Notes: generated by a model not told the origin, from the letters alone. Shown: positions 4,524 through 56,425, counted from the first letter of the stretch. The stretch is 64,000 nucleotides of DNA from a virus (IMGVR_UViG_3300047553_000365:32001-96000); one strand, 5' to 3'. Made by a program: numbers and translations.

Positions 4524-4945
4524 TTAATGATTGTTTTAAGATAGGCTTCTGCCCTTTGTGTAGCGGTTGCGTGAATATTAAGAAACTGGTCGTATAAGTC
4601 CACCGTTGGAGTTGTGTCTAATACCATAGCCAATATAAAAGCATAGGATTTAAGTTGTTTTTCCGATAGGGTTTTCTCTACCTCATGCATCGCATTAAGA
4701 TCATTAAGGTAGTCAGGAACATTGCATCTGTTCATTGCATCCGTGGCATCCAAAAACTTCCTTGTTATTACATCAACCACTCCACCATAACCCCTGATAG
4801 GTTCATCCCAAAATTGTATTTTTGAACCTGATGGGGTAAAAACTTGCCATAATGGGTTTTTAGACATTAGTTTATCATCGGTAGCAAAAATAATTTGCCA
4901 CCCGCACGACTCTGCAATTGCTATTCTTTGTCTTTCGGGTGTCAT
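4511..4945 (-). CDS. conserved phage hypothetical protein (possible ABA-sandwich-like); paralog of 44464-44850
   Basis: RIAIAESCGW...VPDYLNDLNAMHEVE...ATQRAEAY pattern shared with 44464-44850. Confidence 0.6.
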   Translation of the reverse strand: MTPERQRIAIAESCGWQIIFATDDKLMSKNPLWQVFTPSGSKIQFWDEPIRGYGGVVDVITRKFLDATDAMNRCNVPDYLNDLNAMHEVEKTLSEKQLKSYAFILAMVLDTTPTVDLYDQFLNIHATATQRAEAYLKTIIKWES

Positions 4946-17937: not shown

Positions 17938-17954
17938 ATTATATTATTCTAATG

Positions 17955-18027
17955 TAGGGGCAGTAGGATTTGAACCTACGACCCAAGGATTATGAGTCCT
18001 CTGCTCTAACCACTGAGCTATACCCCT
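17955..18027 (-). tRNA. tRNA with CAU anticodon (Ile2/lysidine type or Met)
   Basis: 73-nt cloverleaf AGGGGTATAGCTCAGTGGTTAGAGCAGAGGA-CTCATAA-TCCTTGGGTCGTAGGTTCAAATCCTACTGCCCCTA; CCA not encoded. Confidence 0.9.
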
Positions 18028-18033
18028 ATGTTA

Positions 18034-18835
18034 TTAATTAGTGCAAACACGCTCACGCATAATTTGAAATACTGTTTGCTTAAGAAGATCACTACCAATA
18101 CTCAATCCTAAAAAATTAACACTCTCTAGTTCATGCACACGGTCAAGAAAGGTATCCAATTGATGCCTTTCATCTTCCTTAAGACCTTTAGTATCAAATA
18201 CTCCAATAGGTGTAGTTGCTCTAATAAAATACCTGTTTTCCCATCCGTCTACTCTCCATTTCATAGTCATATTATTTGTTTGGTTTATGTTTCTTTAACA
18301 GCTTTAAACAAAGTTTTCCTAATTCATCATCTCCAAAGTGTTGTTTAATTATATGCGACACTAAAGCTTTTTCACTTTTCAATCCATTACAAACCCAAAG
18401 TTCTCCCTTCTTAGAATATCCCCAAGTTCCTCCCCAAACATTAGGATCACACTTATGGAATTCGTATCCTGCAAGTTTTACTATTTCTTCGTATGTCATA
18501 GATTACATTTTCTGTAAAACTTCCCGAACCCTTTCCGCAGCTTCCAACTTAAAATTAACCCCATCTTCAAAATCAATAAACCAATCCAACAAAAACAATT
18601 CAACTGCTTGAAACATGGCCAAAGAATCAAGATCAGTAGAGAAACAACAAAAGCCACCATTACCATATTGCGCTCCAATTTCTGCCAATTTATGTTCGCA
18701 GTCTCCTCTACGAATAATGTAAACATTAGAAGGATCAACATCCCACAAAATCCCCAACAATTTCTTTAGGGCATCTTCTGGTTGATAATTTTTATATTGT
18801 TCAACAAAATTATTCATATTAGTTGTAGTTTTCAT
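18034..18835 (-). CDS. three small hypothetical proteins (18034-18270, 18272-18499, 18503-18835)
   Basis: Contiguous ORFs after a promoter motif. Confidence 0.6.
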
Positions 18836-18841
18836 AGTCTT

Positions 18842-18862
18842 ATTGTATCCCGGTTTTAATTA
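18842..18862 (-). promoter_or_regulatory. phage promoter motif copy 12
   Basis: TAATTAAAACCG-GGA-TACAAT, 6 nt to ATG 18835. Confidence 0.8.
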
Positions 18863-18868
18863 CTTAAG

Positions 18869-18943
18869 TGGTGTTACATATTGGAATCGAACCAATCACC
18901 CGTCAGTTATAAACCAACCGCTCTACCAATGAGCTAATGTAAC
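18869..18943 (-). tRNA. tRNA-Ile(UAU)
   Basis: GTTACAT acceptor, AGCTCATTGGTAGAGC D arm, GTTGG-TTTATAA-CTGAC anticodon arm, ATTGGTTCGATTCCAAT T arm, encoded CCA. Confidence 0.85.
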
Positions 18944-18957
18944 ATTTATTATTACAG

Positions 18958-19086
18958 TGGCATGGGTGGGAATCGAACCCACACGCCCTAAACGGGCAAC
19001 GGATTTTGACGATTAATATAATATTGTTTCAACTATATTAATCGGTTTAAAAAGTCCGTAGCGTCTACCAATTCCGCCACCATGCC
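18958..19086 (-). tRNA. tRNA-Leu (UAA or CAA) interrupted by a 44-nt insert in the anticodon loop
   Basis: GGCATGG/CCATGCC acceptor, TGGCGGAATTGGTAGACGC D arm, ACGGA/TCCGT anticodon stem, long variable arm, GTGGGTTCGATTCCCAC T arm; 129 nt minus 44 = 85 nt. Confidence 0.85.
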
Positions 19087-19097
19087 ATTAACTCTAT

Positions 19098-19253
19098 TTA
19101 GTCTGCCTCATCTACAATGAAGACAGAAGCATAAGATTGAGTCTTAGGGTCTTCATAGCTTACACCATAGGCAGGATTGCAATCCTTAAGGGCAGCACAG
19201 TTACTAAGAGTAATTGCACCAATCATAATTCCAATATATTTCAACGTTTTCAT
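19098..19253 (-). CDS. small putative lipoprotein (51 aa, not in ORF track)
   Basis: MKTLKYIGIMIGAITLSNC: basic N-terminus, hydrophobic stretch, lipobox-like LSNC. Confidence 0.6.
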   Translation of the reverse strand: MKTLKYIGIMIGAITLSNCAALKDCNPAYGVSYEDPKTQSYASVFIVDEAD

Positions 19254-19265
19254 ATTTATTTTATT

Positions 19266-19445
19266 TTAGCAGTTATACCATTTATTACAACATTTACATT
19301 TAAAAGTTCCTCCAAATACAGGGTGTGCAGACTCCATAATATGTTTACCAGTTTTAGTAACTTCACACACTGTATTGATTTGTCGGCTAGAAGTAGGATT
19401 GAACATACTTAGAATAATTTCACCAATGAGTTTCAATATTTTCAT
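19266..19445 (-). CDS. small Cys/His-rich protein (59 aa, not in ORF track)
   Basis: Hand translation ...CEVTKTGKH...FKCKCCNKWYNC. Confidence 0.55.
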   Translation of the reverse strand: MKILKLIGEIILSMFNPTSSRQINTVCEVTKTGKHIMESAHPVFGGTFKCKCCNKWYNC

Positions 19446-19449
19446 AGGT

Positions 19450-21170
19450 TTATTTCTTGTAGCCTTTCAGTAGTTCTCCAATATGTTCAAGAACCAATTT
19501 AGCTTCTTCGATAGTAAGACAAACCATTCCACCATTATAGTTCATCTTTTGAGACTTGTCAATCTCAAAATTTGCAATAGTAATTCCATCACCCCCAACA
19601 TCTTTACGAAAATTCTCAATAGAAATACCATAAGTCTGTCCCATGAAGATTTTAATTTCCTTATATACTTCTGGTTCCATAATTTTATTCTTCAAATTGT
19701 CTTACATATTCGTCTGCCATCATAGATATAATGGTTACTTGCCATGTTAGGGGAAACCACTTATCCCTAATCAACTCCCAAAAATCCTTTGGCCACCTAC
19801 CATATTCACACAGATATTTCCATGCTTTAATATGTTCAGGATTCTTAATATCAAAATAGTCTACGATTGATTCTTGCATATTACAGTTTGTTTAATTCTT
19901 TTCTTATTTTAGTGTTACAAGGAAAACAATGTTCACATGGAAAAAAACCCTTTGGAATAGTTTCCGTTACTGTTCCTTCCACCTTTAAACATTTACTATG
20001 TTCAGCATGATATACCCTAACACCCCAACGAGGAGTTGCAATTGCTTTTGGGTTATATTTTAATTTCATAGTTTGTTAATTTCTTCAAACGCTTTCTCCC
20101 AATTGTTTGTATCCATTAGAACGGAGATAGCGAGTTGGTCATACTTACCCAAGGTCTTGAATTTGTCAACAAATTCCTTTGCCTTTTGTTCTGCAAGTTC
20201 CGCAGATTCATTTACAGTAAGTGTAAATAGATTAAGATTGTTAATAAGTTTCGGTGACATGGTTATAGTATACCGTGGTTTTAATTACTTGGTAAATGCT
20301 CTGATAGAATACAGAGAGATACTAAATAGGATTGCAGTTCTAATAACATAGAGTTCAACATATTGTAGAGAACATCCGATACAATCCAAAATACCATTAA
20401 CATAAGGTTCCTTCATAAACCATGCGATTAAAAGAATGGAAGGTAGACCAATAATTGCAGGAGTAGATTCTGGCTTCTCATCAAACTTAAGTAGTTTAGA
20501 GAATGTCCAAACACCAAATAGAAAGACACTCAAGCCTGTAAGATAACCCCATAATGCATAGTCAAACAAAAATCCACCACCTAACATAATTGGTAGACCT
20601 GTCCACCAAGGAAGGTTAAAAAGATAACTAAGTATTTTCATAATTAATAAGTGTCTTTCTGAGTCCTTCTATTACAGATATCATCTTCCCATTCATTATG
20701 TTTAGGAACATGATTCTCAACTGCTTCTTCCCTTGTGTTGGCAAATTGCCATACCCAACAAGCAACATCTAGCTTCTCAAAAGCATCTTTCCAAGATTCA
20801 TTCTCTTCAAAAGCAACAATATTGCCATCATTTTCTTCGATTGTAATGTATCTGTTCATAATTAATAAAGATTTTCAGAATATAATATTCCCGTTTGCCC
20901 ATCATAACAGAGTTTTCTAATTTGTCCATTTTTTTCTGCAACTGCCCAAGCCTCTTCTCTTGATAAGAATTCACCAAACTGATTAATAAATCCTTGTTTC
21001 TCTACTTGATATTTAAAATTATCCCCATAGATTCTTCTACCTGTTTCTCTCATATCTGGTGAAAAATGTCTAACTCCCGAAAGAATTAACCCATCTTTCA
21101 TCATCATAGCTGCACATACTATGATAGAGTCAGGCTTTACTAAACCTTTTTCTGTCCAATAGTCTTCCAT
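19450..21170 (-). CDS. run of seven small hypothetical proteins (19450-19695, 19685-19879, 19881-20069, 20066-20260, 20285-20641, 20644-20859, 20862-21170)
   Basis: Contiguous ORFs of 62-118 aa; 20285-20641 is multi-pass hydrophobic. Confidence 0.6.
20267..20287 (-). promoter_or_regulatory. phage promoter motif copy 13 (CCA variant)
   Basis: TAATTAAAACCA-CGG-TATACT, 6 nt to ATG 20260. Confidence 0.75.
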
Positions 21171-21180
21171 AATTTTAAGG

Positions 21181-21213
21181 GGTAGCAGTAACCCACTCCT
21201 AGATTACTGCTAC
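21181..21213. terminator. intergenic hairpin, possible terminator or processing site
   Basis: ggtagcagtaa / ttactgctacc perfect 11-bp inverted repeat; no clear U-tract on the minus strand. Confidence 0.45.
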
Positions 21214-21243
21214 CGTTTTACTCCCCACCACTTGTATTACAAG

Positions 21244-21738
21244 TTATTCAACATCTGTAGGAATTCCAAGAATGTTCTCTGCCTTAACATTGAAACATTC
21301 CTTAACTTCCTCAACTTCTCCCATAAGCTTCTTTGCATCACTACCAGTAAGATAGGAAGCAAACTGTTCCTTACTCACTTCTGATCCATCAACATAGTAA
21401 TGGGTCTTAGTCCTATTACCCACAGAAGGGTAAAGACGAATGTAATCCACTCCCTTATGTTCGATGATATAAGGGAATTGCTTCCATTGTCCCCAAGGAA
21501 GTGCGCCAACTTCTCCCCTAGTTCCTTCTTCAATTCCCTGCTTAACGCTGGAAAGGTTAGCATAATCAATACCAGCCCTTACAACACCTTCTGATACCTT
21601 TTCAAGAATAACATTCTTAAAAGAAGCAGCAGGTTTAGGTTGAGACTTCCAGCAAACCTTTACAAAGTTACCCTTTGCAGACAGAATCTTATTCTTAATT
21701 GCATCGGCACTCAATGACATATTAGTAGTATCGCTCAT
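21244..21738 (-). CDS. hypothetical protein
   Basis: 164 aa; ATG 6 nt after a promoter motif. Confidence 0.75.
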   Translation of the reverse strand: MSDTTNMSLSADAIKNKILSAKGNFVKVCWKSQPKPAASFKNVILEKVSEGVVRAGIDYANLSSVKQGIEEGTRGEVGALPWGQWKQFPYIIEHKGVDYIRLYPSVGNRTKTHYYVDGSEVSKEQFASYLTGSDAKKLMGEVEEVKECFNVKAENILGIPTDVE

Positions 21739-21744
21739 ATCAGT

Positions 21745-21765
21745 ATTATAGTTCGGTTTTAATTA
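21745..21765 (-). promoter_or_regulatory. phage promoter motif copy 14
   Basis: TAATTAAAACCG-AAC-TATAAT, 6 nt to ATG 21738. Confidence 0.8.
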
Positions 21766-22483
21766 GTAGTTTCTATTAGCATTCACAAGACCATCAAACC
21801 ATGATTGGTCTTCCATAGACTTAGTAGCATTAGGACAAGTCCTAGAGATAAAAACATTAATATACTTACTGGTAGTTTTACTATGTTTGTAACCAGTAAT
21901 AACAACTCCCCTGCCGGGAATAAATGCAGCAACAGGAGTAGAGTAAGAATAAAAGATAACGCTTCCATCATTAAGATGAATGTCCGTTTGATTAGGAGAA
22001 ACATTAATAACTTTCATGGCCCTATTGTATCCCGGTTTTAATTACTATTCTTTTTCTATTGGAGTATGCACATTAACACAGTAAATCAAATTGTCATTTC
22101 CTCTACCACTATTTCTATATTCAAATGATCTACAAAACTCGTATCCTTTTTCTTTCCACATTTTACCAAGGAATTCATTTCTTTCATTCACATCATCAAA
22201 CTCATAGTAATTAGTAGTCACAGAGGTTTTTCTACCTTTGATAAATATCCAACTACTACCTGTATGTTGAAAGGTTAAGGACATATTAATATTCGTAGCC
22301 TTTATATTTTCTATAAGTATCAAAACATTCGGGATCTTGTTTGGCTTTTCGCCTTTCTTCTCTGATCTTACTTTTCTTTAAATATTTACGATACTTTGAT
22401 TGTTTATGTTCTCCCCCTTTTTTGGGAGAATCAAAATATCTTTCAATTTGTTCTGACATAATAGTGTAATTAATGGCGATCAC
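21763..22483 (-). CDS. three small hypothetical proteins (21763-22017, 22045-22323, 22286-22483)
   Basis: Contiguous ORFs. Confidence 0.55.
22024..22044 (-). promoter_or_regulatory. phage promoter motif copy 15
   Basis: TAATTAAAACCG-GGA-TACAAT, 6 nt to ATG 22017. Confidence 0.8.
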
Positions 22484-22551
22484 GGCAAGATTCGAACTTG
22501 CAACCTAATCCTTAGAAGGGATTTGCTCTGGTCCTATTGAGCTACGCGACC
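22474..22551 (-). tRNA. tRNA-Arg(UCU)
   Basis: GGTCGCG acceptor, AATCC-CTTCTAA-GGATT anticodon arm, GCAAGTTCGAATCTTGC T arm, encoded CCA. Confidence 0.9.
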
Positions 22552-26065: not shown

Positions 26066-26164
26066 GTGTATGTGATATACGGGACCGCTTATGTCATACC
26101 ACGCACACAAAGTTATTATAACTTAATGAATTTGATATTTTAATAAGTTTGTTATAAAAATGAA

Positions 26165-26194
26165 AGTGGTGTAGTCTTTCACAACTACACCACT
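26165..26194 (-). terminator. intrinsic terminator closing the ncRNA array
   Basis: AGTGGTGTAGT / ACTACACCACT 11-bp stem followed by TTCATTTTT on the minus strand. Confidence 0.8.
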
Positions 26195-26212
26195 CGTTTA
26201 GGTATATCAAAC

Positions 26213-26333
26213 AAATCTCTTTTTTATTATAGAATCCCGTTCTACCACTAAACTAACCGCTCCATAAGGAGGGTATTGGAATCGAACCAATGACTGGATT
26301 TTGGATTAATAATGTTACTTGCTGTAGAGATTT
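26213..26333 (-). ncRNA. array unit F: YrlA/Y-RNA-like RNA with permuted tRNA module
   Basis: AAATCTCT/AGAGATTT closing stem, ACAGCAAG box, T arm ATTGGTTCGATTCCAAT, acceptor-like hairpin ACCCTCC-TTAT-GGAGCGGT, D arm TAGTTTAGTGGTAGAAC. Confidence 0.8.
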
Positions 26334-26337
26334 TATC

Positions 26338-26484
26338 AGAAATCCATCTTGTTTGCTTCCCTGCGTCTACCAGTTTCGCCATCCCCAACGTTTATTTATA
26401 TAAGTGTGGGGAGTAGGACTTGAACCTACAGGTGATCTATTGATCGCGGGACTTTACATTGCTATTATTTGCTGTTGAATTTCT
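26338..26484 (-). ncRNA. array unit E: YrlA-like RNA with permuted class II (Leu-like) tRNA module
   Basis: AGAAATT/GATTTCT stem, ACAGCAAAT box, variable-arm-like GATC-AATA-GATC, T arm GTAGGTTCAAGTCCTAC, TCCCCA...TGGGGA acceptor-like stem, D arm TGGCGAAACTGGTAGACGCA. Confidence 0.8.
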
Positions 26485-26488
26485 TATC

Positions 26489-26611
26489 AGAACTTGTTTT
26501 TTTCTTTTTTCATGCTGCCACTACACCATACGCTCCGCTAGGAACGTAGCAGGATTCGAACCTGCGCCTCTTGTTTACATACAATTAGATAATATTTGCA
26601 GTTCAAGTTCT
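26489..26611 (-). ncRNA. array unit D: YrlA-like RNA with permuted tRNA module
   Basis: AGAACTTG/CAAGTTCT stem, ACTGCAAAT box, T arm GCAGGTTCGAATCCTGC, TACGTTCC-TAGC-GGAGCGTA hairpin, D-like TGGTGTAGTGGCAGCA. Confidence 0.8.
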
Positions 26612-26615
26612 TATC

Positions 26616-26678
26616 AGATTACATTTTACTTGGTTTCATTTATCAATTGAATAGTATATATTTGCTGTATTGTAATCT
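26616..26678 (-). ncRNA. array unit C: short stem-loop RNA
   Basis: AGATTACA/TGTAATCT stem, ACAGCAAAT box, A-rich loop; GATA linkers on both sides. Confidence 0.7.
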
Positions 26679-26682
26679 TATC

Positions 26683-26739
26683 AAGTCTCGTTTTTTCCTA
26701 TTTTGCTAATTGGTTTTTTATATTTGCTGGTTGAGACTT
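26683..26739 (-). ncRNA. array unit B: short stem-loop RNA
   Basis: AAGTCTC/GAGACTT stem, CCAGCAAAT box, A-rich loop. Confidence 0.7.
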
Positions 26740-26743
26740 TATC

Positions 26744-26796
26744 AGAATAGTTTTGTTTCCTTTCTTAAATGTAGAATATATTTGCTGGACTATTCT
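26744..26796 (-). ncRNA. array unit A: short stem-loop RNA
   Basis: AGAATAGT/ACTATTCT stem, CCAGCAAAT box, A-rich loop. Confidence 0.7.
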
Positions 26797-26800
26797 TATA

Positions 26801-26882
26801 GAATAAAGGATTCAATACTTGGGATTACCATCATTTCGCAGCAAGCTTAACTGTATCAGGGTTCCTTTTCAAGCCTTTATTC
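26801..26882 (-). ncRNA. array leader unit G: 82-nt stem-closed RNA
   Basis: GAATAAAGG/CCTTTATTC 9-bp stem; joined to unit A by TATA; contains CTTGCTG instead of CAGCAA. Confidence 0.6.
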
Positions 26883-26894
26883 ATGGCGTAATAC

Positions 26895-26923
26895 TATTTA
26901 TCACAATAGCATTACGGTGTCAA
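26895..26923 (-). promoter_or_regulatory. possible promoter of the ncRNA array
   Basis: TTGACA-N17-TAAATA, 12 nt upstream of unit G; the -10 is non-canonical. Confidence 0.45.
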
Positions 26924-26955
26924 GTAGTTAGTGTTATGAGCAGTAAACTACTGAC
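26919..26955 (-). terminator. hairpin downstream of the TROVE gene
   Basis: gtca(a)gtagtt ... aactactgac imperfect inverted repeat. Confidence 0.4.
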
Positions 26956-26967
26956 AAGGTGCTTAGG

Positions 26968-28620
26968 TTAAACTTCGACCATGTTTAGAATCTCTTGGTC
27001 AAGAGCTTCTTCCATGAGTTCGTAAGTGGTCTTAATCTTGCCGCTAAGGAAAGAGATAACGGATGCAGAGTATCCACCGAAGTAATACACATTAAGCGCA
27101 TTCTTACCAGTTTCAAACTTCTCACCAGTTCCCTTACCATAGTAGTTACTTTGGAGATTCCAAAGAACGATTACAAATTCATCAACATATTCCTTAGAGA
27201 ATCCTGCATTTCTAAGAGTAGTGCGAGCAGCATCCACATTAGTCTTATTCAAACTAGCAGGATTAAACTCACTATCACTAATGCACAGAATTCCACGGGG
27301 GAAATCAGATTCGGGAGTTCCTTGTTTCTTCATCTTGCAGAACAAGTTAATAACACTTTGGAAGTTGGTTGAACCAACAAATCCTGACTTATCATTCTTC
27401 CACTTGGAAGTAGGAGAATGACCATTCCACTTGTGAAGCTTTGCATCAGAATTGAATTCAATCCAATGTCCTGCGAAAGTTCCAGTAAGGAATTCACTAA
27501 AGTAAAGAGCAAGAGCCTTACCAATATCATAGCAAGTAGACTTAGTTCCAGTAGCAATGCTACCCATAGAACCAGAAGTGTCACGCACCACGATTAGGTT
27601 GGTATAGTTTTCACCTGCCTTAGCCTTATCAACAAGAGTTTGAAACTGCTTATCAATAGTAAGTTCCTTGTTAGAATCCCCTTGCCAATGACCTTCAAAG
27701 AGTTCATGGACAAATCCAGTATACTTAACAGCAGTAGTCTCAGGCTTCTTAATCCATTCAGAATACTTCTCACTAAGACCTTGATTCTTAAGGAACTTGC
27801 TCTTAACAAGAATCGACAATGCACGACCATGAATCTTACTAAAGTCGATATCCTTAAACTTACCTTGTGAGATAAGCTTTTGCCAATCGTGTGCAGATCC
27901 ACTAGTCTTAAGCTTACGATACTTCTTGTAGTTAGCAGGAGAAGTCTTGCTTCCAAACAGTAGATAACAAATCCACTTAGCAATTTGATTATTAGACTGT
28001 GCATCCACAGTAGTAGCTTGAGACTTAGCCTTGATTTGTGGAAGATACTTCTTCACAAGATCGCAGGTCTTATCATTATTAAGTGCAGCCAGAATCAGTT
28101 CACCAAACTTATCCCAATCCAATTGACGGTTTTCCCATCCATTGTAACTAAGATCATATTGCAGCATGGTAAACACATCATGCCATGAACCCACAGAAAC
28201 AAACAGCAGAATGTTATTCCAGAAAGAATCAGGAGAAACAGTGTGCAGCCAAATCATACGCATGATAGCTTCATGCTTAAGTTCAGTTCCAAGTTGAGGA
28301 TTCTTAGTCTTACTACCATCAGGCAGACTAACAATACGAGGAATGGTTCTAAGGAACAAAGTAAACTTTACTGCCTTAAGAGGATCTTCACCCCAAAGAG
28401 TAGATGCATCAGCAGCAATCTCAGAAAACTTGCGGGGAGTCTTGTAATTACCAGCCTTAGTAAATTGATCGACTAGCGTAGAGCCTGAAGATTTAAACTT
28501 CAATGCTCCATTACCAGAACGAGTCTTATTCGATTCTGCATTGGCATTAGCAAGAAACTCATTAACTTTTTTACGAGTCACTTTACGCACGGTTTCGGCT
28601 TGTCTTTTATTCTCAAACAT
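26968..28620 (-). CDS. TROVE/vWA protein (DUF2828-like, Ro60-related RNA-binding protein)
   Basis: N-terminal SGNGALKFKSSGSTLVDQF and GSWHD motifs; C-terminal vWA MIDAS VVRDTSGSM, GSTNF, CISDSEFN; 550 aa. Confidence 0.8.
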   Translation of the reverse strand: MFENKRQAETVRKVTRKKVNEFLANANAESNKTRSGNGALKFKSSGSTLVDQFTKAGNYKTPRKFSEIAADASTLWGEDPLKAVKFTLFLRTIPRIVSLPDGSKTKNPQLGTELKHEAIMRMIWLHTVSPDSFWNNILLFVSVGSWHDVFTMLQYDLSYNGWENRQLDWDKFGELILAALNNDKTCDLVKKYLPQIKAKSQATTVDAQSNNQIAKWICYLLFGSKTSPANYKKYRKLKTSGSAHDWQKLISQGKFKDIDFSKIHGRALSILVKSKFLKNQGLSEKYSEWIKKPETTAVKYTGFVHELFEGHWQGDSNKELTIDKQFQTLVDKAKAGENYTNLIVVRDTSGSMGSIATGTKSTCYDIGKALALYFSEFLTGTFAGHWIEFNSDAKLHKWNGHSPTSKWKNDKSGFVGSTNFQSVINLFCKMKKQGTPESDFPRGILCISDSEFNPASLNKTNVDAARTTLRNAGFSKEYVDEFVIVLWNLQSNYYGKGTGEKFETGKNALNVYYFGGYSASVISFLSGKIKTTYELMEEALDQEILNMVEV

Positions 28621-28626
28621 ATTAGT

Positions 28627-28654
28627 ATTTTAGTTTATTTTTTCGATTTGTCAA
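28627..28654 (-). promoter_or_regulatory. sigma70-type promoter of the TROVE gene (leaderless)
   Basis: TTGACA-N16-TAAAAT, 6 nt to ATG 28620. Confidence 0.6.
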
Positions 28655-28717: not shown

Positions 28718-29458
28718 CTAATATAACCATAAATCTTCCTCACTTGTAATAGCACCAAACAAGAAATCATTAATAGAAAGGTAATCAGTTAGGTTATAAT
28801 TATCACCTTTAGTTGGCGACCACCATGACCCATTTCTTTGTTGGTCAGAGCATTCATCCTCCCAACTGTGTCCAATCTTTTTAAGCATTTCTTTTTGATC
28901 TGCTCTACCTTGTCCATGTAATTCTTTAGGAGAAAAATGAGACAGGCAAAACATAGAGATACTATTTCTTTCCCAATCCTTAACTCTCCATAGAAAGACA
29001 TTGGCAACATCTTCTTTCGGACATTGAAATGCTCTAGCATCAAACACAGCAGGATTATATGATCCGATATTAAATCTACCATTATCCCAATTCAAACATG
29101 TCCAAGTTTTATTGAAGTAGGCAGTCATTAGTGCAGCAGTAACAGATTCAATCTTATTCTGTCTACCACCGAACCATTGTTGAGTTTCAATACTACCACT
29201 ATCATCCAACACAAAAGTTACTTCATCACTTTGAACATACAATCCTTTACAGTTTTGCATTTCCTTAGCAACATACTTAGCAGAAATAAACATAGCATTG
29301 ATTAACTTCGTATCAAAAGGTTTATCGCAACCTTTAGTCCAAGTATGAAATGCCTTACCATCTACTCTAACAAGGATAGGAACCTTGGGAGTAAAGTAAT
29401 GTTCACTGATAGATTCGTAGTGTTTGATTCTATCACCTAATGTATCTTTGCTATTCAT
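28718..29458 (-). CDS. thg1: tRNA(His) guanylyltransferase Thg1-like 3'-5' polymerase
   Basis: RVDGKAFHTWT, YVQSDEVT, FDAR and WRVKDWERNSI motifs. Confidence 0.9.
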   Translation of the reverse strand: MNSKDTLGDRIKHYESISEHYFTPKVPILVRVDGKAFHTWTKGCDKPFDTKLINAMFISAKYVAKEMQNCKGLYVQSDEVTFVLDDSGSIETQQWFGGRQNKIESVTAALMTAYFNKTWTCLNWDNGRFNIGSYNPAVFDARAFQCPKEDVANVFLWRVKDWERNSISMFCLSHFSPKELHGQGRADQKEMLKKIGHSWEDECSDQQRNGSWWSPTKGDNYNLTDYLSINDFLFGAITSEEDLWLY

Positions 29459-32499: not shown

Positions 32500-34107
32500 T
32501 TAAAAGTTCTTTGCTACAGTTGCACGAATCTCTGCCAAAGTGTATTCCTTGGTAAGCTTACCATTAGAGAACACTTGCTTGAATGCACAGTTCTTAACTT
32601 CATCCCAAGTTGCTTGATCCTTAAGAATAAAGTTACCATCATCTTCATAGACAGCAGTAAGACCCTTTGCGGATTTCTTAAGACCACTATCAGTCTTAGG
32701 ATCTTTAAAGATTTCAATGCCCACAGTCTTACCACCCTTAAGGACTTCTCCATAAGTAGACTTAACTGCAAATCCATGAGTATCACGGGTAATGATTGCA
32801 TCAGGAGTAACAGCCCCTTGATAGGTAAAGCTACCAATACCATACACAAGGTTAGTGGATGCAAATCCCTTAGCAGCAAGACGCTCACAAATTTCCTTGG
32901 CACGATCAATAGTAATACTATCTCCGTAGATAGCACCAATATGAGAATCAAGTTGCTTATAACCAGTAGAAGTAGTAGTTCCACCGAAGATTTCCCACAG
33001 ACATTGGATCATACCTTTAATTTCATTTTCGGTAAGATCAGCCCTTTCTCCAAGCTTTCCATTGTCGTTATATCTGTATGCGCCATTAGGCATTTTGATT
33101 AGATCGTATTTGTTCCAATCATCGCTTTCAAAGTCTCCAATAGTATATCCAGTAACAATCTTCACTGGATCACCACTATCAGGACGAATAACAACCTTAC
33201 CATCACGATTCATGATGATATCTTTAAGTTGCTTACAGATACCATTAACGGGATCAACAACATTCCAGAAGTCCCAAGTATCACTAACAATGCTAACAAT
33301 TCCAGCAGGATAGATTTCAGAAATCAAACGCTTAAAGGTTCCAACTTCATCTTCCAATCCACCCATACACATAACGCTGTGTTCCGTAGCACTAACACTA
33401 CCACCCACAAGTTCTTTATCACTATCAGCACCATAGTATTGCTCCAAGAAATCAATAGCAGGAACAGTATCAGTTCCAGTAAAGGATAACAAGTGAGCAG
33501 CACCCGACATAGTAGCAGCCTCTAATCCAAAGTGACCACGAAAACTAAAGTCATGACCCTGCCAAGGAACAAACTCAATCATTTCAGGATTGGTTTTCTT
33601 AGCCCAAGTATTAAAGATCTTACGATAGATCAATGCAGTAGTTGCGCTAGTGCATGGACCCCAAACAGTTGTGCTAATAATAGTTTCAATGGCATTAGTA
33701 AACCAGAAGAAACGAGGATCAGTATTATACATCACAAACATTGGAACACGAAGATTAACATTAGAACCTTCTGGCAATGCCCAAATCTCAAGAGGAATAT
33801 AACCCAATGCATGAAGATCACGAATATGTTGCTCTCCAATACCATTAGGCCCAAGGTAGTTATTCAGTCTACGAGTATAAGCCTTAACAACTTCTTCAAC
33901 ATCCTTTTGGAAGAAGTTCTTATTCCAGTCATTAATCAAATATTCCTTAATGAAATATTGCAGACCGAAAAGAATAACCTTGTTAAGTCCTTGAACACGA
34001 CTACCACGGGCAGTCATATTAGAAAAGACCATTTGGCTATTACTAGGGTATTGGCGGCGATGGTCACACTTGTAACCATCATATAGTAGATGCGGGTTGT
34101 TTTTCAT
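32500..34107 (-). CDS. nadV: nicotinamide phosphoribosyltransferase-like protein (Nampt/NadV; probable NARP1 Namat)
   Basis: DGYKCDH, HDFSFRG, ATEHSVM, SIVSDTWD, IRPDSGDP, IYGDSIT and KKSAKG motifs. Confidence 0.92.
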   Translation of the reverse strand: MKNNPHLLYDGYKCDHRRQYPSNSQMVFSNMTARGSRVQGLNKVILFGLQYFIKEYLINDWNKNFFQKDVEEVVKAYTRRLNNYLGPNGIGEQHIRDLHALGYIPLEIWALPEGSNVNLRVPMFVMYNTDPRFFWFTNAIETIISTTVWGPCTSATTALIYRKIFNTWAKKTNPEMIEFVPWQGHDFSFRGHFGLEAATMSGAAHLLSFTGTDTVPAIDFLEQYYGADSDKELVGGSVSATEHSVMCMGGLEDEVGTFKRLISEIYPAGIVSIVSDTWDFWNVVDPVNGICKQLKDIIMNRDGKVVIRPDSGDPVKIVTGYTIGDFESDDWNKYDLIKMPNGAYRYNDNGKLGERADLTENEIKGMIQCLWEIFGGTTTSTGYKQLDSHIGAIYGDSITIDRAKEICERLAAKGFASTNLVYGIGSFTYQGAVTPDAIITRDTHGFAVKSTYGEVLKGGKTVGIEIFKDPKTDSGLKKSAKGLTAVYEDDGNFILKDQATWDEVKNCAFKQVFSNGKLTKEYTLAEIRATVAKNF

Positions 34108-55067: not shown

Positions 55068-56425
55068 TAGCTTTCTTCCTCCATGTCAGATTCTCCATTG
55101 TCTCTAGATGCACTTTCCTTAATAACGAAATCAGGATTCTTAAACTTAAATGCTGGTCTAGTAGGCTTGCTTTCAATTCTTACAACAATACCTTCATTAA
55201 CAACAGCATTCTTACTAAGGAAACATTGCTTCTTGAAATAGGTTTCCTTAAGCTTAGTAATGAAGTTTGTTCTCCAATCATCATCCACAGGAATATTAAA
55301 CAGATCCTTGGCCAGTCCGTAGTAATGAATAGGAACAGTTTCCAATCCTCTATCCACACAGAACTCAACCATAGACGGAAGAGAGAATTCGTGCTTTTCC
55401 GTAGAGCTAATATTTCTCACGACACGATAAACATAGAATCCAAGTTCACCCTTAGTTAAACCATAGTCATATCCCTTTTGAACACACTTCTCAGGAGATA
55501 CCCATCCAACAATTTCTCCATAGATAAGATAATCGTCTGGAATGCTGTCCTTAATTCTTTCGGAAATAACAGACCACACACCATTATCATTACCAGTTAA
55601 AATTCTGCTTCTAGATGCATACACATGACGATATTCTGTATTAGGAATACCTACCAAAAATCTGAATGGATTAAATCTCTTCTTACATTCCAGTTCTGCA
55701 AAGATAGCAGATGTGCCATGAAGCTTTTCAGACACAGTAATAATATCATCGGGACTAATAAGAAACATATTCTTACCCAACTGTTCAGTCTTGTAATGAA
55801 AGGCAAATTGATTACCCACAATGCTCTTTTCCGCAGAAGGCTTACGGATAGCACTCTCCACAACATTGTATGCAGAGTTAAGAACCTTTCTAACGGGTCT
55901 TGGAAATATGCCAACGATCTTACCAAAGACTTTACGACACTTATTAGGTGTGCTTTGTGTTTGATTGCTAACTTTAACCTCTGGTCTTACATACTTAGTA
56001 ACCAGTAGATCACTACCCACAGTATCAAATTCTTTACCAAGAGCAAACACAGATTCATTCACCTTGTAATATTCTGCAAGTTTGGAAACCTTAAACACAA
56101 ATCCCTGACTAGGAACTTCACGAAGTCTAATAGCCTTTACACGGCATTGCTTACCAAAGAATCCTTTGGTCTTACCATCGCTATTAAGTTCTGGTCTGTC
56201 CAGAAGATTAGCCCAAGAAAGAAACTTTTTATCAATGCAACATTCCACAGGAAAATACACCAATAGTTCCCCTTCCTGATAAGTGCCTTTTTGAATGATA
56301 ATTTCATTACCGAAAATATCAATCAGAGAAAGCTTATCAGCATTAGGATGATCCTTAATTGTTGGACACTTTACAACTGTGGCCAAATAGTTAGGATCTG
56401 CTGTTTCGGAAATAGTAAGTTTCAT
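55067..56425 (-). CDS. RNA ligase, Rnl2/DRB0094-like with N-terminal OB-like domain
   Basis: HPNADKL, VKAIRLREVPSQG, EKLHGTS (motif I), YGEIVG, EGIVVR and FKFK motifs. Confidence 0.85.
   Translation of the reverse strand: MKLTISETADPNYLATVVKCPTIKDHPNADKLSLIDIFGNEIIIQKGTYQEGELLVYFPVECCIDKKFLSWANLLDRPELNSDGKTKGFFGKQCRVKAIRLREVPSQGFVFKVSKLAEYYKVNESVFALGKEFDTVGSDLLVTKYVRPEVKVSNQTQSTPNKCRKVFGKIVGIFPRPVRKVLNSAYNVVESAIRKPSAEKSIVGNQFAFHYKTEQLGKNMFLISPDDIITVSEKLHGTSAIFAELECKKRFNPFRFLVGIPNTEYRHVYASRSRILTGNDNGVWSVISERIKDSIPDDYLIYGEIVGWVSPEKCVQKGYDYGLTKGELGFYVYRVVRNISSTEKHEFSLPSMVEFCVDRGLETVPIHYYGLAKDLFNIPVDDDWRTNFITKLKETYFKKQCFLSKNAVVNEGIVVRIESKPTRPAFKFKNPDFVIKESASRDNGESDMEEES

What the first reader, a model, noticed from the sequence alone, without database searches (positions are those of the whole stretch)
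26213..28620. TROVE/vWA protein coupled to a seven-unit, GATA-linked non-coding RNA array
Seen: directly downstream of the 550-aa TROVE/vWA (DUF2828-like) gene, the minus strand encodes seven abutting stem-closed units of 82, 53, 57, 63, 123, 147 and 121 nt. Every junction is exactly 4 nt (TATA once, GATA five times). Stem sequences differ between units but all pair (7-9 bp), so structure is conserved and sequence is not. Six units carry an unpaired C(A/T)GCAA box 9-11 nt from their 5' end. An intrinsic terminator closes the array. Established: Ro60/Rsr TROVE proteins bind Y RNAs through a stem formed by the RNA's 5' and 3' ends and are linked to RNA repair. The usual bacterial Y RNA Ro-binding consensus is not evident here. 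Inference: one precursor is cut at the GATA linkers into a family of RNAs that load one Ro-like protein through the stem plus CAGCAA box, each with a different payload (A-rich loop or tRNA mimic). This would be a modular phage ribonucleoprotein system, possibly a decoy or repair platform against host tRNA-targeting defences.
Basis: partly seen in the sequence, partly recalled or inferred. Interest (0 to 1): 0.95.

Follow-up and report, generated by a model that had tools for sequence, protein, structure and literature searches.

The report
Phage Ro60-like protein with partner RNAs
A freshwater phage encodes a ring-shaped relative of the RNA-surveillance protein Ro60, followed by a row of six small RNA genes that share one conserved "handle", three of them carrying scrambled tRNA bodies; the same pairing sits in very different phages and I found no published description of it.

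Summary
On the minus strand, 26213-26796 carries six abutting stem-closed units of 53, 57, 63, 123, 147 and 121 nt. Each has a C(A/T)GCAA box 9-11 nt from its 5' end, the linkers are 4 nt, and an intrinsic terminator closes the array. The seventh unit (82 nt, no box) is unverified.

The 550-aa protein upstream folds like full-length Ro60: a TROVE ring plus a vWA domain, Z 19 to Xenopus Ro60. By sequence it belongs to DUF2828/DUF7788, not Pfam TROVE.

A covariance model of the handle finds significant hits only beside this gene, in six whole phage records. A strict scan finds 28 handles on the gene strand and none on the opposite strand in 9 of 11 distant phage loci. The closing stem covaries: 99% of cells pair against 63% in shuffles.

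Units 5-7 are YrlA-type permuted tRNA mimics.

Best reading: these are Y-RNA-like partners of a Ro60 paralogue, a new variant of a known kind. Binding, processing and any anti-defence role are untested.

The handle also resembles the Class I RNAs of Dictyostelium.

This scan has noted the same pairing before on other DNA: 96 notes in at least 91 genomes.

The parts
28627..28654 (-). Sigma-70-like promoter upstream of the Ro60-like gene (TTGACA, 16 nt, TAAAAT)
   Evidence: Consensus scan, 11 of 12 positions. This is a consensus match only.
26968..28620 (-). 550-aa Ro60-like protein: TROVE-type helical ring plus a C-terminal vWA domain with an intact MIDAS motif (D347, S349, S351). It belongs to the DUF2828/DUF7788 family.
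   Evidence: Pfam DUF7788 at 41 bits, above its 27.1 cut-off; DUF2828 weak at 17.5 bits. AlphaFold2 pLDDT 91.5. The top Foldseek hits are phiLo Ro60 and vertebrate Ro60. VIA-align gives Z 19.0 with 419 residues aligned to 1yvr, while vWA-only hits reach at most 10.9. The MIDAS columns are invariant in 74 homologues.
26895..26923 (-). Promoter-like element TTGACA-N17-TAAATA between the gene and the array; probably the array's own promoter
   Evidence: It is the only match to TTGACA-N17-TAARTW in the 64-kb window, where 0.14 is expected. One match sits at the same place in each of L001, L002 and L003. The second hexamer lacks the usual final T, so the standard scan did not list it.
26887..26916 (-). 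11-bp inverted repeat (one G-T pair) flanking the -10-like hexamer; function unknown
   Evidence: Read from the sequence. Repeats of different sequence flank the same hexamer in L001-L003.
26801..26882 (-). Unit 1: 82-nt stem-closed element without the box; status uncertain
   Evidence: 9-bp closing stem, z -1.1. No homologue in related loci.
26744..26796 (-). Unit 2: short handle RNA, 53 nt, 8-bp stem, CAGCAA box
   Evidence: 39.4 bits, E 7e-6
26683..26739 (-). Unit 3: short handle RNA, 57 nt, 7-bp stem, CAGCAA box
   Evidence: 54.9 bits, E 3e-9
26616..26678 (-). Unit 4: short handle RNA, 63 nt, 8-bp stem, ACAGCAA box
   Evidence: 45.6 bits. Rfam Dicty_Class_I_RNA scores 32.7 bits, E 0.0018.
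26489..26611 (-). Unit 5: handle (CTGCAA box) plus a permuted tRNA-like body. The order is T arm, then an 8-bp acceptor-like hairpin with a tetraloop, then a D arm.
   Evidence: (z -3.0)
26338..26484 (-). Unit 6: handle plus a permuted class-II (tRNA-Leu-like) body with a variable-arm hairpin, T arm, acceptor-like hairpin and a long D loop
   Evidence: The D-arm region resembles the phage's own tRNA-Leu-like gene, and the T arm resembles its tRNA-Met. Homologous units occur in L001 and L002.
26213..26333 (-). Unit 7: handle plus a YrlA-type permuted tRNA-like body
   Evidence: Rfam YrlA aligns full-length at 28.5 bits, E 0.0033, below the cut-off of 69. The T arm is identical over 18 nt to the phage tRNA-Ile gene.
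26164..26195 (-). Intrinsic terminator closing the array
   Evidence: 13-bp stem, 5 G-C pairs, T run
28718..29458 (-). Neighbouring Thg1-like gene (3'-5' nucleotidyl transferase family, tRNA 5'-end repair); context only, not shown to be part of the system
   Evidence: Pfam Thg1, E 9e-28. Also found upstream of the homologue in L001, but not in the other loci.

Best explanation
The locus encodes a phage ribonucleoprotein of the Ro60/Y-RNA kind.

The 550-aa protein is a Ro60 paralogue: a TROVE ring plus a vWA domain, of the DUF2828/DUF7788 family. The six boxed units downstream are its partner RNAs.

Each RNA is closed by a 7-9 bp stem formed by its own 5' and 3' ends. Next to that stem is an asymmetric internal loop. 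Its 5' side carries (U)(U/A)A-CAGCAA-AUA at a fixed 10 (+/-1) nt from the 5' end. Its 3' side is A-rich. A G-W-W-A follows the stem. This shared handle is the inferred protein-binding site, by analogy with the terminal stem of Y RNAs that Ro60 binds.

The interior of each RNA is a variable module. Three units have A/U-rich, nearly unstructured interiors. Three have tRNA bodies opened at the anticodon end and closed at the acceptor end, as in bacterial YrlA.

The array is probably transcribed from its own promoter-like element, and perhaps also by read-through from the gene. It ends at the intrinsic terminator and is then cut into single RNAs.

Inferred function: the modules bring tRNA-recognising enzymes, nucleases or substrates to the ring. 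This would serve tRNA or RNA surveillance or repair during infection, or act as bait for host tRNA-directed nucleases.

Shown here: the anatomy, the protein fold, the covariation and the gene-RNA linkage. Inferred: binding, processing and function.
For: Protein:
- AlphaFold2 model with pLDDT 91.5.
- All ten best structural matches are Ro60, Rsr or phage Ro60. Z is 19.0 over 419 residues to 1yvr and 16.1 to phiLo Ro60 9kop; vWA-only proteins follow at Z 10.9 or less (Foldseek).
- The profile of 74 homologues has Ro60 as its best PDB hit, E 3e-4.

RNA:
- All 7 stem pairs show compensatory changes.
- 99.1% of 231 cells pair, against 63% in shuffles and 32-42% when the partner is slid.

Specificity:
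- Model R1 gives hits at E below 0.01 only in the arrays beside the gene. This holds in the window's own 139-kb record and in five other whole phage records of 76-207 kb.
- Those hits include units that were not used to build the model.

Linkage:
- A strict scan finds 28 handles on the gene strand and 0 on the opposite strand. They lie in 9 of 11 loci from phages of Salmonella, Listeria, Enterococcus, Bacillus, Campylobacter, Cronobacter, Mycobacterium, Synechococcus and Leptolyngbya.
- The four closest IMG/VR relatives all carry arrays.

Transcription unit:
- A conserved promoter-like element and a terminator.
- A sediment metatranscriptome holds identical contigs over unit 7 and the gene. 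This is a weak hint only.

Precedent:
- Ro60 binds Y RNAs through the stem formed by their ends.
- Bacterial YrlA carries the same permuted tRNA module (PMC4201824).
- Thermus phage phiLo Ro60 binds two RNAs encoded next to its gene and joins host PNPase (PMC12135203).

Context:
- A Thg1-like gene lies next door.
- The same record carries an RNA-ligase family gene and a CCA-adding-type gene.
- Four tRNA genes lie 3.7-8.6 kb away.
Against: - No direct evidence of binding, and none of discrete mature RNAs.
- The protein fails the Pfam TROVE model and shares only about 10% identity with Ro60, so its RNA-binding mode may differ.
- The handle does not resemble the known Ro60-binding helix of YrlA or of metazoan Y RNAs.
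- Two of the 11 distant loci (an Erwinia jumbo phage and an Aeromonas phage) showed no handle within 2.5 kb of the gene.
- In several phages the units lie among tRNA genes, so linkage to the tRNA cluster rather than to the protein is not fully separated.
- The only RNA-library contig over the array covers the tRNA-like body and the 3' handle strand of unit 7 but not its 5' handle strand. If that contig reflects a mature RNA, it does not fit an intact handle.
Confidence: 0.7

Rival explanations
1. The units are protein-independent decoys or sponges. They are tRNA-shaped and A-rich RNAs that soak up host anticodon nucleases, tRNA-modifying enzymes or other RNA-binding proteins. The Ro60-like gene is merely a frequent neighbour within the phage's tRNA and RNA-repair gene block.
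For: Three units mimic tRNA bodies built from parts like the phage's own tRNAs. In Felix O1, Bacillus PBC2, Campylobacter CP81 and Synechococcus B3 the units sit within or next to tRNA clusters. The genome carries tRNA-repair-type genes.
Against: A decoy needs no shared handle, yet the handle is the most conserved part. It is also present on units without any tRNA-like part. In this window the nearest tRNA gene is 3.7 kb away, while the Ro60-like gene is adjacent. Whole-genome model searches place every significant hit beside the gene.
Confidence: 0.12
2. The elements act in cis as processing or stability signals of a polycistronic RNA operon. The stems and G-W-W-A motifs would be nuclease entry or stop sites. 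They would not be stand-alone functional RNAs.
For: The units abut with fixed 4-nt linkers. They are interleaved with tRNAs in other phages. Folding energies of the short units are weak.
Against: In this window there is nothing else in the transcript to process: the array consists only of these units. A 6-nt unpaired box held at a fixed distance from the 5' end in 62 of 64 units is not expected of a cleavage hairpin. The tRNA-like interiors are conserved between related phages.
Confidence: 0.08
3. The array is decayed or rearranged tRNA genes, or a repeat family with no present function.
For: The T and D arms match real phage tRNAs. The records of Cronobacter S13 and Synechococcus B3 annotate over-long, 'pseudo' or 'other' tRNAs near their DUF2828-type gene. 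The two S13 ones contain the handle.
Against: Covariation keeps 99% of the stem cells paired across phages of several bacterial phyla. The units share no DNA-level repeat beyond the box. The acceptor-like hairpin and T arm also covary, in 11 of 12 pairs. Decay would not preserve this.
Confidence: 0.03

Closest known systems
Ro60 (Rsr/TROVE2) with Y RNAs, especially bacterial and phage YrlA (Rfam RF02553; Chen et al. 2014, PMC4201824)
   Same: A ring protein of TROVE plus vWA fold is encoded next to its small RNAs. Each RNA is closed by a stem of its own 5' and 3' ends, and several RNAs accompany one protein. At least one RNA carries a tRNA-like module in the order T arm, acceptor-like hairpin, D arm. 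The locus is linked to RNA-repair-type genes.
   Different: The protein belongs to the DUF2828/DUF7788 sequence family, not to Pfam TROVE, and shares about 10% identity with Ro60. The handle is a single stem plus a CAGCAA internal loop, not the YrlA two-helix handle. Rfam YrlA stays far below its cut-off (28.5 of 69 bits). Six units stand in one head-to-tail array. Most units have no tRNA-like part.
Thermus phage phiLo Ro60 with Yrl1 and Yrl2 (PMC12135203; PDB 9KOP, 9L5Y)
   Same: A phage-encoded Ro60-fold protein with RNAs encoded next to the gene. It is a top structural match to this protein (Z 16.1). Binding and a complex with host PNPase were shown experimentally for phiLo.
   Different: The phiLo RNAs were defined by a CGAA motif in a bulge and lie upstream of the gene. 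There are two RNAs, not an array. The profile of this protein's family does not find the phiLo protein by sequence at E up to 1.
Class I RNAs of dictyostelid amoebae (Rfam RF01414; Kjellin et al. 2021, PMC7919456)
   Same: Length is about 50-65 nt. A short stem of variable, covarying sequence joins the ends. An unpaired motif ending in (U)UACAGCAA follows directly after the 5' strand, and its C, C, A, A positions are invariant in both. The interior is variable and A-rich. A conserved G-C pair sits near the end of the stem, and U-G follows the 3' strand. The Rfam model hits unit 4 at 32.7 bits (E 0.0018). It hits units of Leptolyngbya phage Lbo-JY46 at 39.3 and 30.7 bits. These were the best hits other than tRNA and YrlA.
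   Different: All scores are below the gathering cut-off of 41.5. Class I RNAs are eukaryotic and are transcribed singly from DUSE promoters. They were reported as absent outside Dictyostelia, and their known direct binder is an RRM protein (Rnp1A/CIBP). No link to a DUF2828 protein is known. Homology versus convergence is open.

Membership tests
Ro60 / TROVE proteins | Ring of HEAT-like helical repeats (TROVE module) followed by a vWA domain | tested here: met
   The AlphaFold2 model (pLDDT 91.5) aligns over 419 residues to Xenopus Ro60 at Z 19.0, rmsd 4.1. The ten best entries are all Ro60, Rsr or phage Ro60.
Ro60 / TROVE proteins | Sequence membership in Pfam TROVE (PF05731) | tested here: not met
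   No TROVE hit at E up to 0.01 for the window protein. None at E up to 1 for four homologues. They match DUF7788 and DUF2828 instead.
Ro60 / TROVE proteins | MIDAS motif in the vWA domain | tested here: met
   D347, S349 and S351 are invariant, and T418 and D449 nearly invariant, in 74 homologues.
Ro60 / TROVE proteins | Binds Y RNA through the stem formed by the RNA's ends | not testable with these tools
   Needs pull-down or a gel-shift assay. Only gene-RNA linkage was shown here.
DUF2828/DUF7788 family | Pfam DUF7788 (C-terminal vWA-like domain) above its cut-off | tested here: met
   41 bits against a cut-off of 27.1
DUF2828/DUF7788 family | Pfam DUF2828 (N-terminal part) above its cut-off | tested here: inconclusive
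   17.5 bits against a cut-off of 29. Full-length homologues in mycobacteriophage Archie and Enterococcus phage Porthos pass at 99 and 95 bits, and tblastn aligns them over 95% of the query.
YrlA (Rfam RF02553) | tRNA-like domain in the order T arm, acceptor-like hairpin, D arm | tested here: met
   Units 5-7. 11 of 12 T-arm and acceptor pairs show compensatory changes across 12 units from 8 phages.
YrlA (Rfam RF02553) | Score at or above the Rfam gathering cut-off (69 bits), including the YrlA-type handle | tested here: not met
   Only unit 7 is hit, at 28.5 bits. Nothing is reported at the gathering threshold.
Dictyostelid Class I RNA (Rfam RF01414) | Terminal stem, the 11-nt motif CCUUACAGCAA next to the 5' strand, and a length of about 42-65 nt | tested here: inconclusive
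   The stem and length are met for units 2-4. Six to nine of the eleven motif positions are shared. Scores are 32.7 bits here and up to 39.3 bits in a relative, against a cut-off of 41.5.
Dictyostelid Class I RNA (Rfam RF01414) | Dictyostelid gene with a DUSE promoter about 60 nt upstream | tested here: not met
   This is a phage array with a bacterial-type promoter-like element and an intrinsic terminator.
CAGCAA-handle RNAs beside DUF2828-type genes (in no Rfam family; no paper found) | A 7-10 bp end-to-end stem, CAGCAA 9-11 nt from the 5' end, an A-rich 3' side, a G after the stem, and a location on the gene strand within about 2.5 kb of the gene | tested here: met
   Six units here. 64 units in 14 loci share these features, with the box exactly 10 nt from the 5' end in 47 of them. 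They lie on the gene strand only.

The most novel reading that the evidence does not exclude
The CAGCAA-handle RNAs of phages and the Class I RNAs of dictyostelid amoebae are one RNA family. DUF2828-type Ro60 paralogues are its ancestral protein partner. Class I RNAs, reported as unique to Dictyostelia and of unknown mechanism, would then be Y-RNA-like partners of a Ro60-like ring.

One concrete lead: the bioRxiv version of Kjellin et al. (10.1101/2020.04.05.026054) lists an uncharacterised protein, DDB_G0281243, among the four proteins pulled down with Class I RNA DdR-21. I could not look up its domains.
Probability: 0.12. Interest if true: 0.9.

Novelty: new variant of a known kind. Interest (0 to 1): 0.7.

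Why it matters
Ro60 and Y RNAs are a classic but still poorly understood RNA-surveillance particle.

This work points to a second, very large branch of it. The protein has homologues in 548 phage records. A search with the Enterococcus phage homologue found more than 4,600 database proteins. This branch has its own RNA handle.

The handle works like an adaptor. One protein-binding module is fused to interchangeable payloads, including tRNA bodies in different circular permutations. That makes the function experimentally approachable in well-studied phages such as Felix O1, Listeria and Enterococcus herelleviruses and cluster L mycobacteriophages.

It may also reveal how phages guard or exploit tRNAs during infection. 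If the resemblance to Dictyostelium Class I RNAs is homology, it would give those RNAs a mechanism.

Tried and rejected
- DNA-level search of the locus against 50,697 phage records found no relative of the array, only short Thg1 matches. Relatives had to be reached through the protein.
- The first homologous-protein run timed out. A 'longer' search gave only one fused form. A 'near' search listed only close relatives, so eukaryotic DUF2828 proteins could not be reached.
- The covariance model of short units scores the long, tRNA-bearing units poorly because of the large insert. Unit 5 got 17 bits, and units 6 and 7 were not reported. These units were confirmed instead by the pattern-plus-pairing scan.
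- Unit 1 has no box, no homologue and no energy signal. It is not counted as a family member.
- Degenerate tRNA pseudogenes and DNA repeats are rejected on covariation.
- The standard sigma-70 scan did not list the element before the array. It was found by eye and confirmed as conserved by pattern search.
- Sequencing runs: only one RNA run held any of the stretch. It was kept as contigs, so RNA ends, strand and level could not be read. Parts of the array without cover in that run say nothing.
- Erwinia phage pEa_SNUABM_19 and Aeromonas phage AsFcp_2 showed no handle within 2.5 kb of the gene. I did not search their whole genomes.
- RtcB was not found in the 67%-complete record. This is no evidence that the phage lacks it.
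- Literature searches for DUF2828, for Ro-like with phage and Y RNA, and for ACAGCAA with phage found no description of this RNA family.
- Avesson et al. 2011, which describes the Class I RNA pull-down, is not held.
Full report
**Observation**

I read the minus strand from 28900 to 25900. A script looked for a box C(A/T/C)GCA(A/T/C) preceded by a stem strand whose partner lies downstream.
- 26796-26744 (53 nt)
- 26739-26683 (57 nt)
- 26678-26616 (63 nt)
- 26611-26489 (123 nt)
- 26484-26338 (147 nt)
- 26333-26213 (121 nt)

The stems are 7-9 bp and differ in sequence. The box starts 9-11 nt from the 5' end. The linkers are TATA once and GATA five times. A 13-bp terminator hairpin with a T run follows at 26195-26164.

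With stricter rules the whole 64-kb window holds 8 units on both strands. The rules were a stem of at least 7 bp with at most one G-U, the box 9-11 nt from the end, and a G after the stem. Six of the 8 are this array. Forty dinucleotide shuffles gave a mean of 1.2 and a maximum of 3.

Unit 1 (26882-26801) has a 9-bp closing stem but no box. It has no folding signal (z -1.1) and no counterpart in related loci, so I leave it unverified.

**The protein**

ORF 26968-28620 (550 aa) matches Pfam DUF7788 above its cut-off and DUF2828 weakly. It does not match Pfam TROVE.

A search of 1.84 billion representative proteins found 1,921 relatives. With 73 of them as an alignment, AlphaFold2 gave a confident model: pLDDT 91.5, pTM 0.90.

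The best Foldseek matches are the TROVE crystal structure 9KOP and Ro60 of Thermus phage phiLo, then Xenopus and human Ro60. VIA-align gives Z 19.0, 419 aligned residues and rmsd 4.1 to Xenopus Ro60. All ten top entries are Ro60, Rsr or phage Ro60. Proteins that share only the vWA domain follow at Z 10.9 or less.

The family profile finds Ro60 as its best PDB sequence hit, E 3e-4, over the MIDAS region. The MIDAS residues are invariant.

By sequence this is a separate family from canonical Ro60. Homologues annotated "Ro-like RNA binding protein" in mycobacteriophages, and "DUF2828" in Enterococcus phages, carry both Pfam domains.

**The RNA family**

The protein has homologues in 548 phage records. 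The four closest IMG/VR relatives (56-76% identity) and Leptolyngbya phage Lbo-JY46 (46%) all carry arrays of the same build next to the gene. So do mycobacteriophage Archie, with three units downstream, and Enterococcus phage Porthos, with three units upstream.

I aligned 19 short units from six phages. RNAalifold recovered the closing stem, with compensatory changes at all 7 pairs.

A covariance model (R1) gave significant hits in the 64-kb window only in the array. The same held in the window's own 139-kb record. In five other whole phage records of 76-207 kb, every hit at E below 0.01 lay beside the gene. Several of those hits were units not used for training.

On 33 model hits from 10 phages, 99.1% of 231 stem cells pair. 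Shuffles give 63% and slid partners 32-42%. There are 85 double-sided changes. One caveat applies: that alignment was fitted to the model.

I then took eight further, distant loci. A strict scan of these together with the Leptolyngbya, Archie and Porthos loci (11 in all) found 28 handles on the gene strand and none on the opposite strand. Nine of the 11 loci carried handles. Their hosts are Salmonella, Listeria, Enterococcus, Bacillus, Campylobacter, Cronobacter, Mycobacterium, Synechococcus and Leptolyngbya. The Erwinia jumbo-phage and Aeromonas phage loci had none within 2.5 kb.

Over 64 units in 14 loci the consensus is as follows:
- The 5' end reads A-G/A-R.
- The box CAGCAA lies exactly 10 nt from the 5' end in 47 units, and 9-11 nt in 62.
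- The box is preceded by (U)(U/A)A and followed by A-U-A.
- The strand before the 3' stem is A-rich.
- G-W-W-A follows the stem.

Unit lengths fall into two groups, about 50-75 nt and about 90-150 nt.

**Payloads**

Units 2-4 have A/U-rich interiors with at most a weak 4-bp hairpin.

Units 5-7 each contain three elements in order: a canonical T arm (GGTTCGAWTCC type), directly followed by a 7-8 bp hairpin in the place of the acceptor stem, and then a D arm (TAGTGGTAGA type). This is a tRNA opened at the anticodon end and closed at the acceptor end.

This is the architecture of bacterial YrlA. Rfam's YrlA model aligns full-length to unit 7, but at only 28.5 bits against a cut-off of 69. Across 12 such units from 8 phages, 11 of 12 T-arm and acceptor pairs show compensatory changes.

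Unit 6 has a variable-arm hairpin and a tRNA-Leu-type D loop. Unit 7's T arm is identical over 18 nt to the phage's own tRNA-Ile. Unit 6 resembles the phage's tRNA-Met in its T arm and the tRNA-Leu-like gene in its D arm. The modules look derived from phage tRNAs.

In Cronobacter phage S13, two over-long "tRNAs" next to the homologous gene show the opposite permutation. The tRNA ends are open and end in CCA. The anticodon arm is replaced by the handle, whose stem is capped by GACA or GATA. So the four bases after the stem belong to the motif itself. The same object exists with the chain break at either end.

**Transcription**

A near-consensus promoter precedes the protein gene (28654-28627). 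No terminator lies between the gene and the array.

Between them sits TTGACA-N17-TAAATA (26923-26895). It is the only match to TTGACA-N17-TAARTW in the window, where 0.14 is expected. One match sits at the same place in each of L001-L003. In L002 and L003 the first unit starts 12-18 nt after the second hexamer. The array therefore probably has its own promoter.

One metatranscriptome, from sediment, holds three contigs identical to the locus: one over unit 7 and two in the protein gene. DNA carry-over is not excluded, so this is only a hint of expression. Processing at the linkers is untested.

**Context**

- A Thg1-like gene lies directly upstream, as it does in L001.
- The record also holds an RNA-ligase family gene and a CCA-adding-type gene, but no RtcB in the 67%-complete record.
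- A nicotinamide phosphoribosyl transferase gene lies at 32500-34107.
- Four tRNA genes lie at 17954-22551.
- In Listeria phage LMTA-148, RtcB-type ligase genes lie 1.3 kb from the homologue.

**How it most likely works**

Established knowledge:
- Ro60 binds the stem formed by the ends of Y RNAs.
- Y RNAs gate the ring and tether partners such as PNPase.
- YrlA carries a tRNA-like module (PMC4201824).
- A phage Ro60 binds two neighbouring RNAs and joins host PNPase (PMC12135203).

By analogy I infer three things. The handle (stem, CAGCAA loop and G-W-W-A) is the protein's binding site. The array is cut into single RNAs. The variable modules bring tRNA-recognising factors or substrates to the ring, for tRNA or RNA surveillance or repair, or as bait.

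I put 0.7 on "partner RNAs of the Ro60-like protein". I put much less on any specific downstream role.

**Comparison with what is known**

The concept of Ro60 with neighbouring Y RNAs, including in phages and including tRNA mimicry, is published. What I did not find published is this pairing: the DUF2828/DUF7788 branch with a CAGCAA handle, in multi-unit arrays.
- Rfam 15 reports only tRNAs at gathering thresholds.
- Relaxed searches give only sub-threshold YrlA and Dicty_Class_I_RNA hits.
- Three literature searches found nothing.

The resemblance to dictyostelid Class I RNAs is detailed. It covers the terminal covarying stem, the (U)UACAGCAA right after the 5' strand with the same invariant C..CAA, the A-rich variable interior, and the U-G after the 3' strand (PMC7919456). 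The Rfam model scores 32.7, 39.3 and 30.7 bits on three units from two phages, against a cut-off of 41.5. It could still be convergence.

The bioRxiv version of that paper names DDB_G0281243, of unknown function, among the four proteins pulled down with a Class I RNA. I could not determine its domains.

**Earlier notes of this scan**

The scan's own index holds 96 notes, in at least 91 genomes, on the same gene-RNA pairing. I treated them as leads and repeated the key tests here. My results agree with them.

**Verdict**

This is a new variant of a known kind of system. Binding, processing and function still need experiments.

Noticed in passing
window 26207-26300 (minus strand), RNA run X16: The only RNA-library contig over the array is 123 nt long. 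It reads 26300 down to 26207 and then again 26299 down to 26271. That is a closed 93-nt k-mer path with a head-to-tail junction 26207|26299. It covers the tRNA-like body and the 3' handle strand of unit 7 and ends inside the GATA after the unit, but it lacks the 5' handle strand. It could be a circular RNA, a template-switch concatemer of an abundant 93-nt fragment, or an artefact.
   Followed up: no
window 18958-19086 (minus strand): A 129-nt tRNA-Leu-like gene that ARAGORN missed and Rfam tRNA scores at 47 bits. Its body looks normal, but about 50 nt forming an A/T-rich hairpin are inserted in the anticodon loop. It may be a small intron or a non-decoding tRNA-like RNA.
   Followed up: partly
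window 26887-26916; L001 about 4675-4710; L002 about 4660-4695; L003 about 4668-4700: In four related phages an inverted repeat of 8-11 bp flanks the -10-like hexamer of the promoter-like element before the array. Its sequence differs in each phage. It could be a regulator's site or a hairpin in read-through RNA.
   Followed up: no
L017 (Cronobacter phage S13) 4380-4622: Two genes annotated as a 121-nt tRNA-Ser and a 113-nt 'tRNA-OTHER' are normal-order tRNA bodies ending in CCA. Their anticodon arm is replaced by the CAGCA handle, capped by a GACA or GATA loop. This is the circular permutation opposite to the window's units 5-7.
   Followed up: partly
L020 (Bacillus phage PBC2) 787-909: A handle stem and CAGCAA box appear to enclose a normal-order tRNA-Ile body, including an anticodon arm. 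This would be a third way of joining handle and tRNA, but it may be a chance composite with the annotated tRNA gene.
   Followed up: no
window 32500-34107 (minus strand): A nicotinamide phosphoribosyl transferase gene (PHROG 448, E 2e-188). This is an NAD salvage function, of the kind phages carry against NAD-depleting defences.
   Followed up: no
window 55142-55741 (minus strand); own record G000 21169-21534, outside the window: An RNA-ligase family domain (PF09414, in a 466-aa frame) and a CCA-adding / poly(A) polymerase family domain (PF01743, in a 511-aa frame). With the Thg1-like gene they form a tRNA-repair-type toolkit in the same phage.
   Followed up: partly
bioRxiv 10.1101/2020.04.05.026054, section on Class I RNA interacting proteins: The four proteins pulled down with Dictyostelium Class I RNA DdR-21 are GuaB, NdkC, CIBP/Rnp1A and DDB_G0281243. 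The last has unknown function and is conserved in all Dictyostelia examined. It is worth checking whether it is a DUF2828/DUF7788 (Ro60-like) protein.
   Followed up: no
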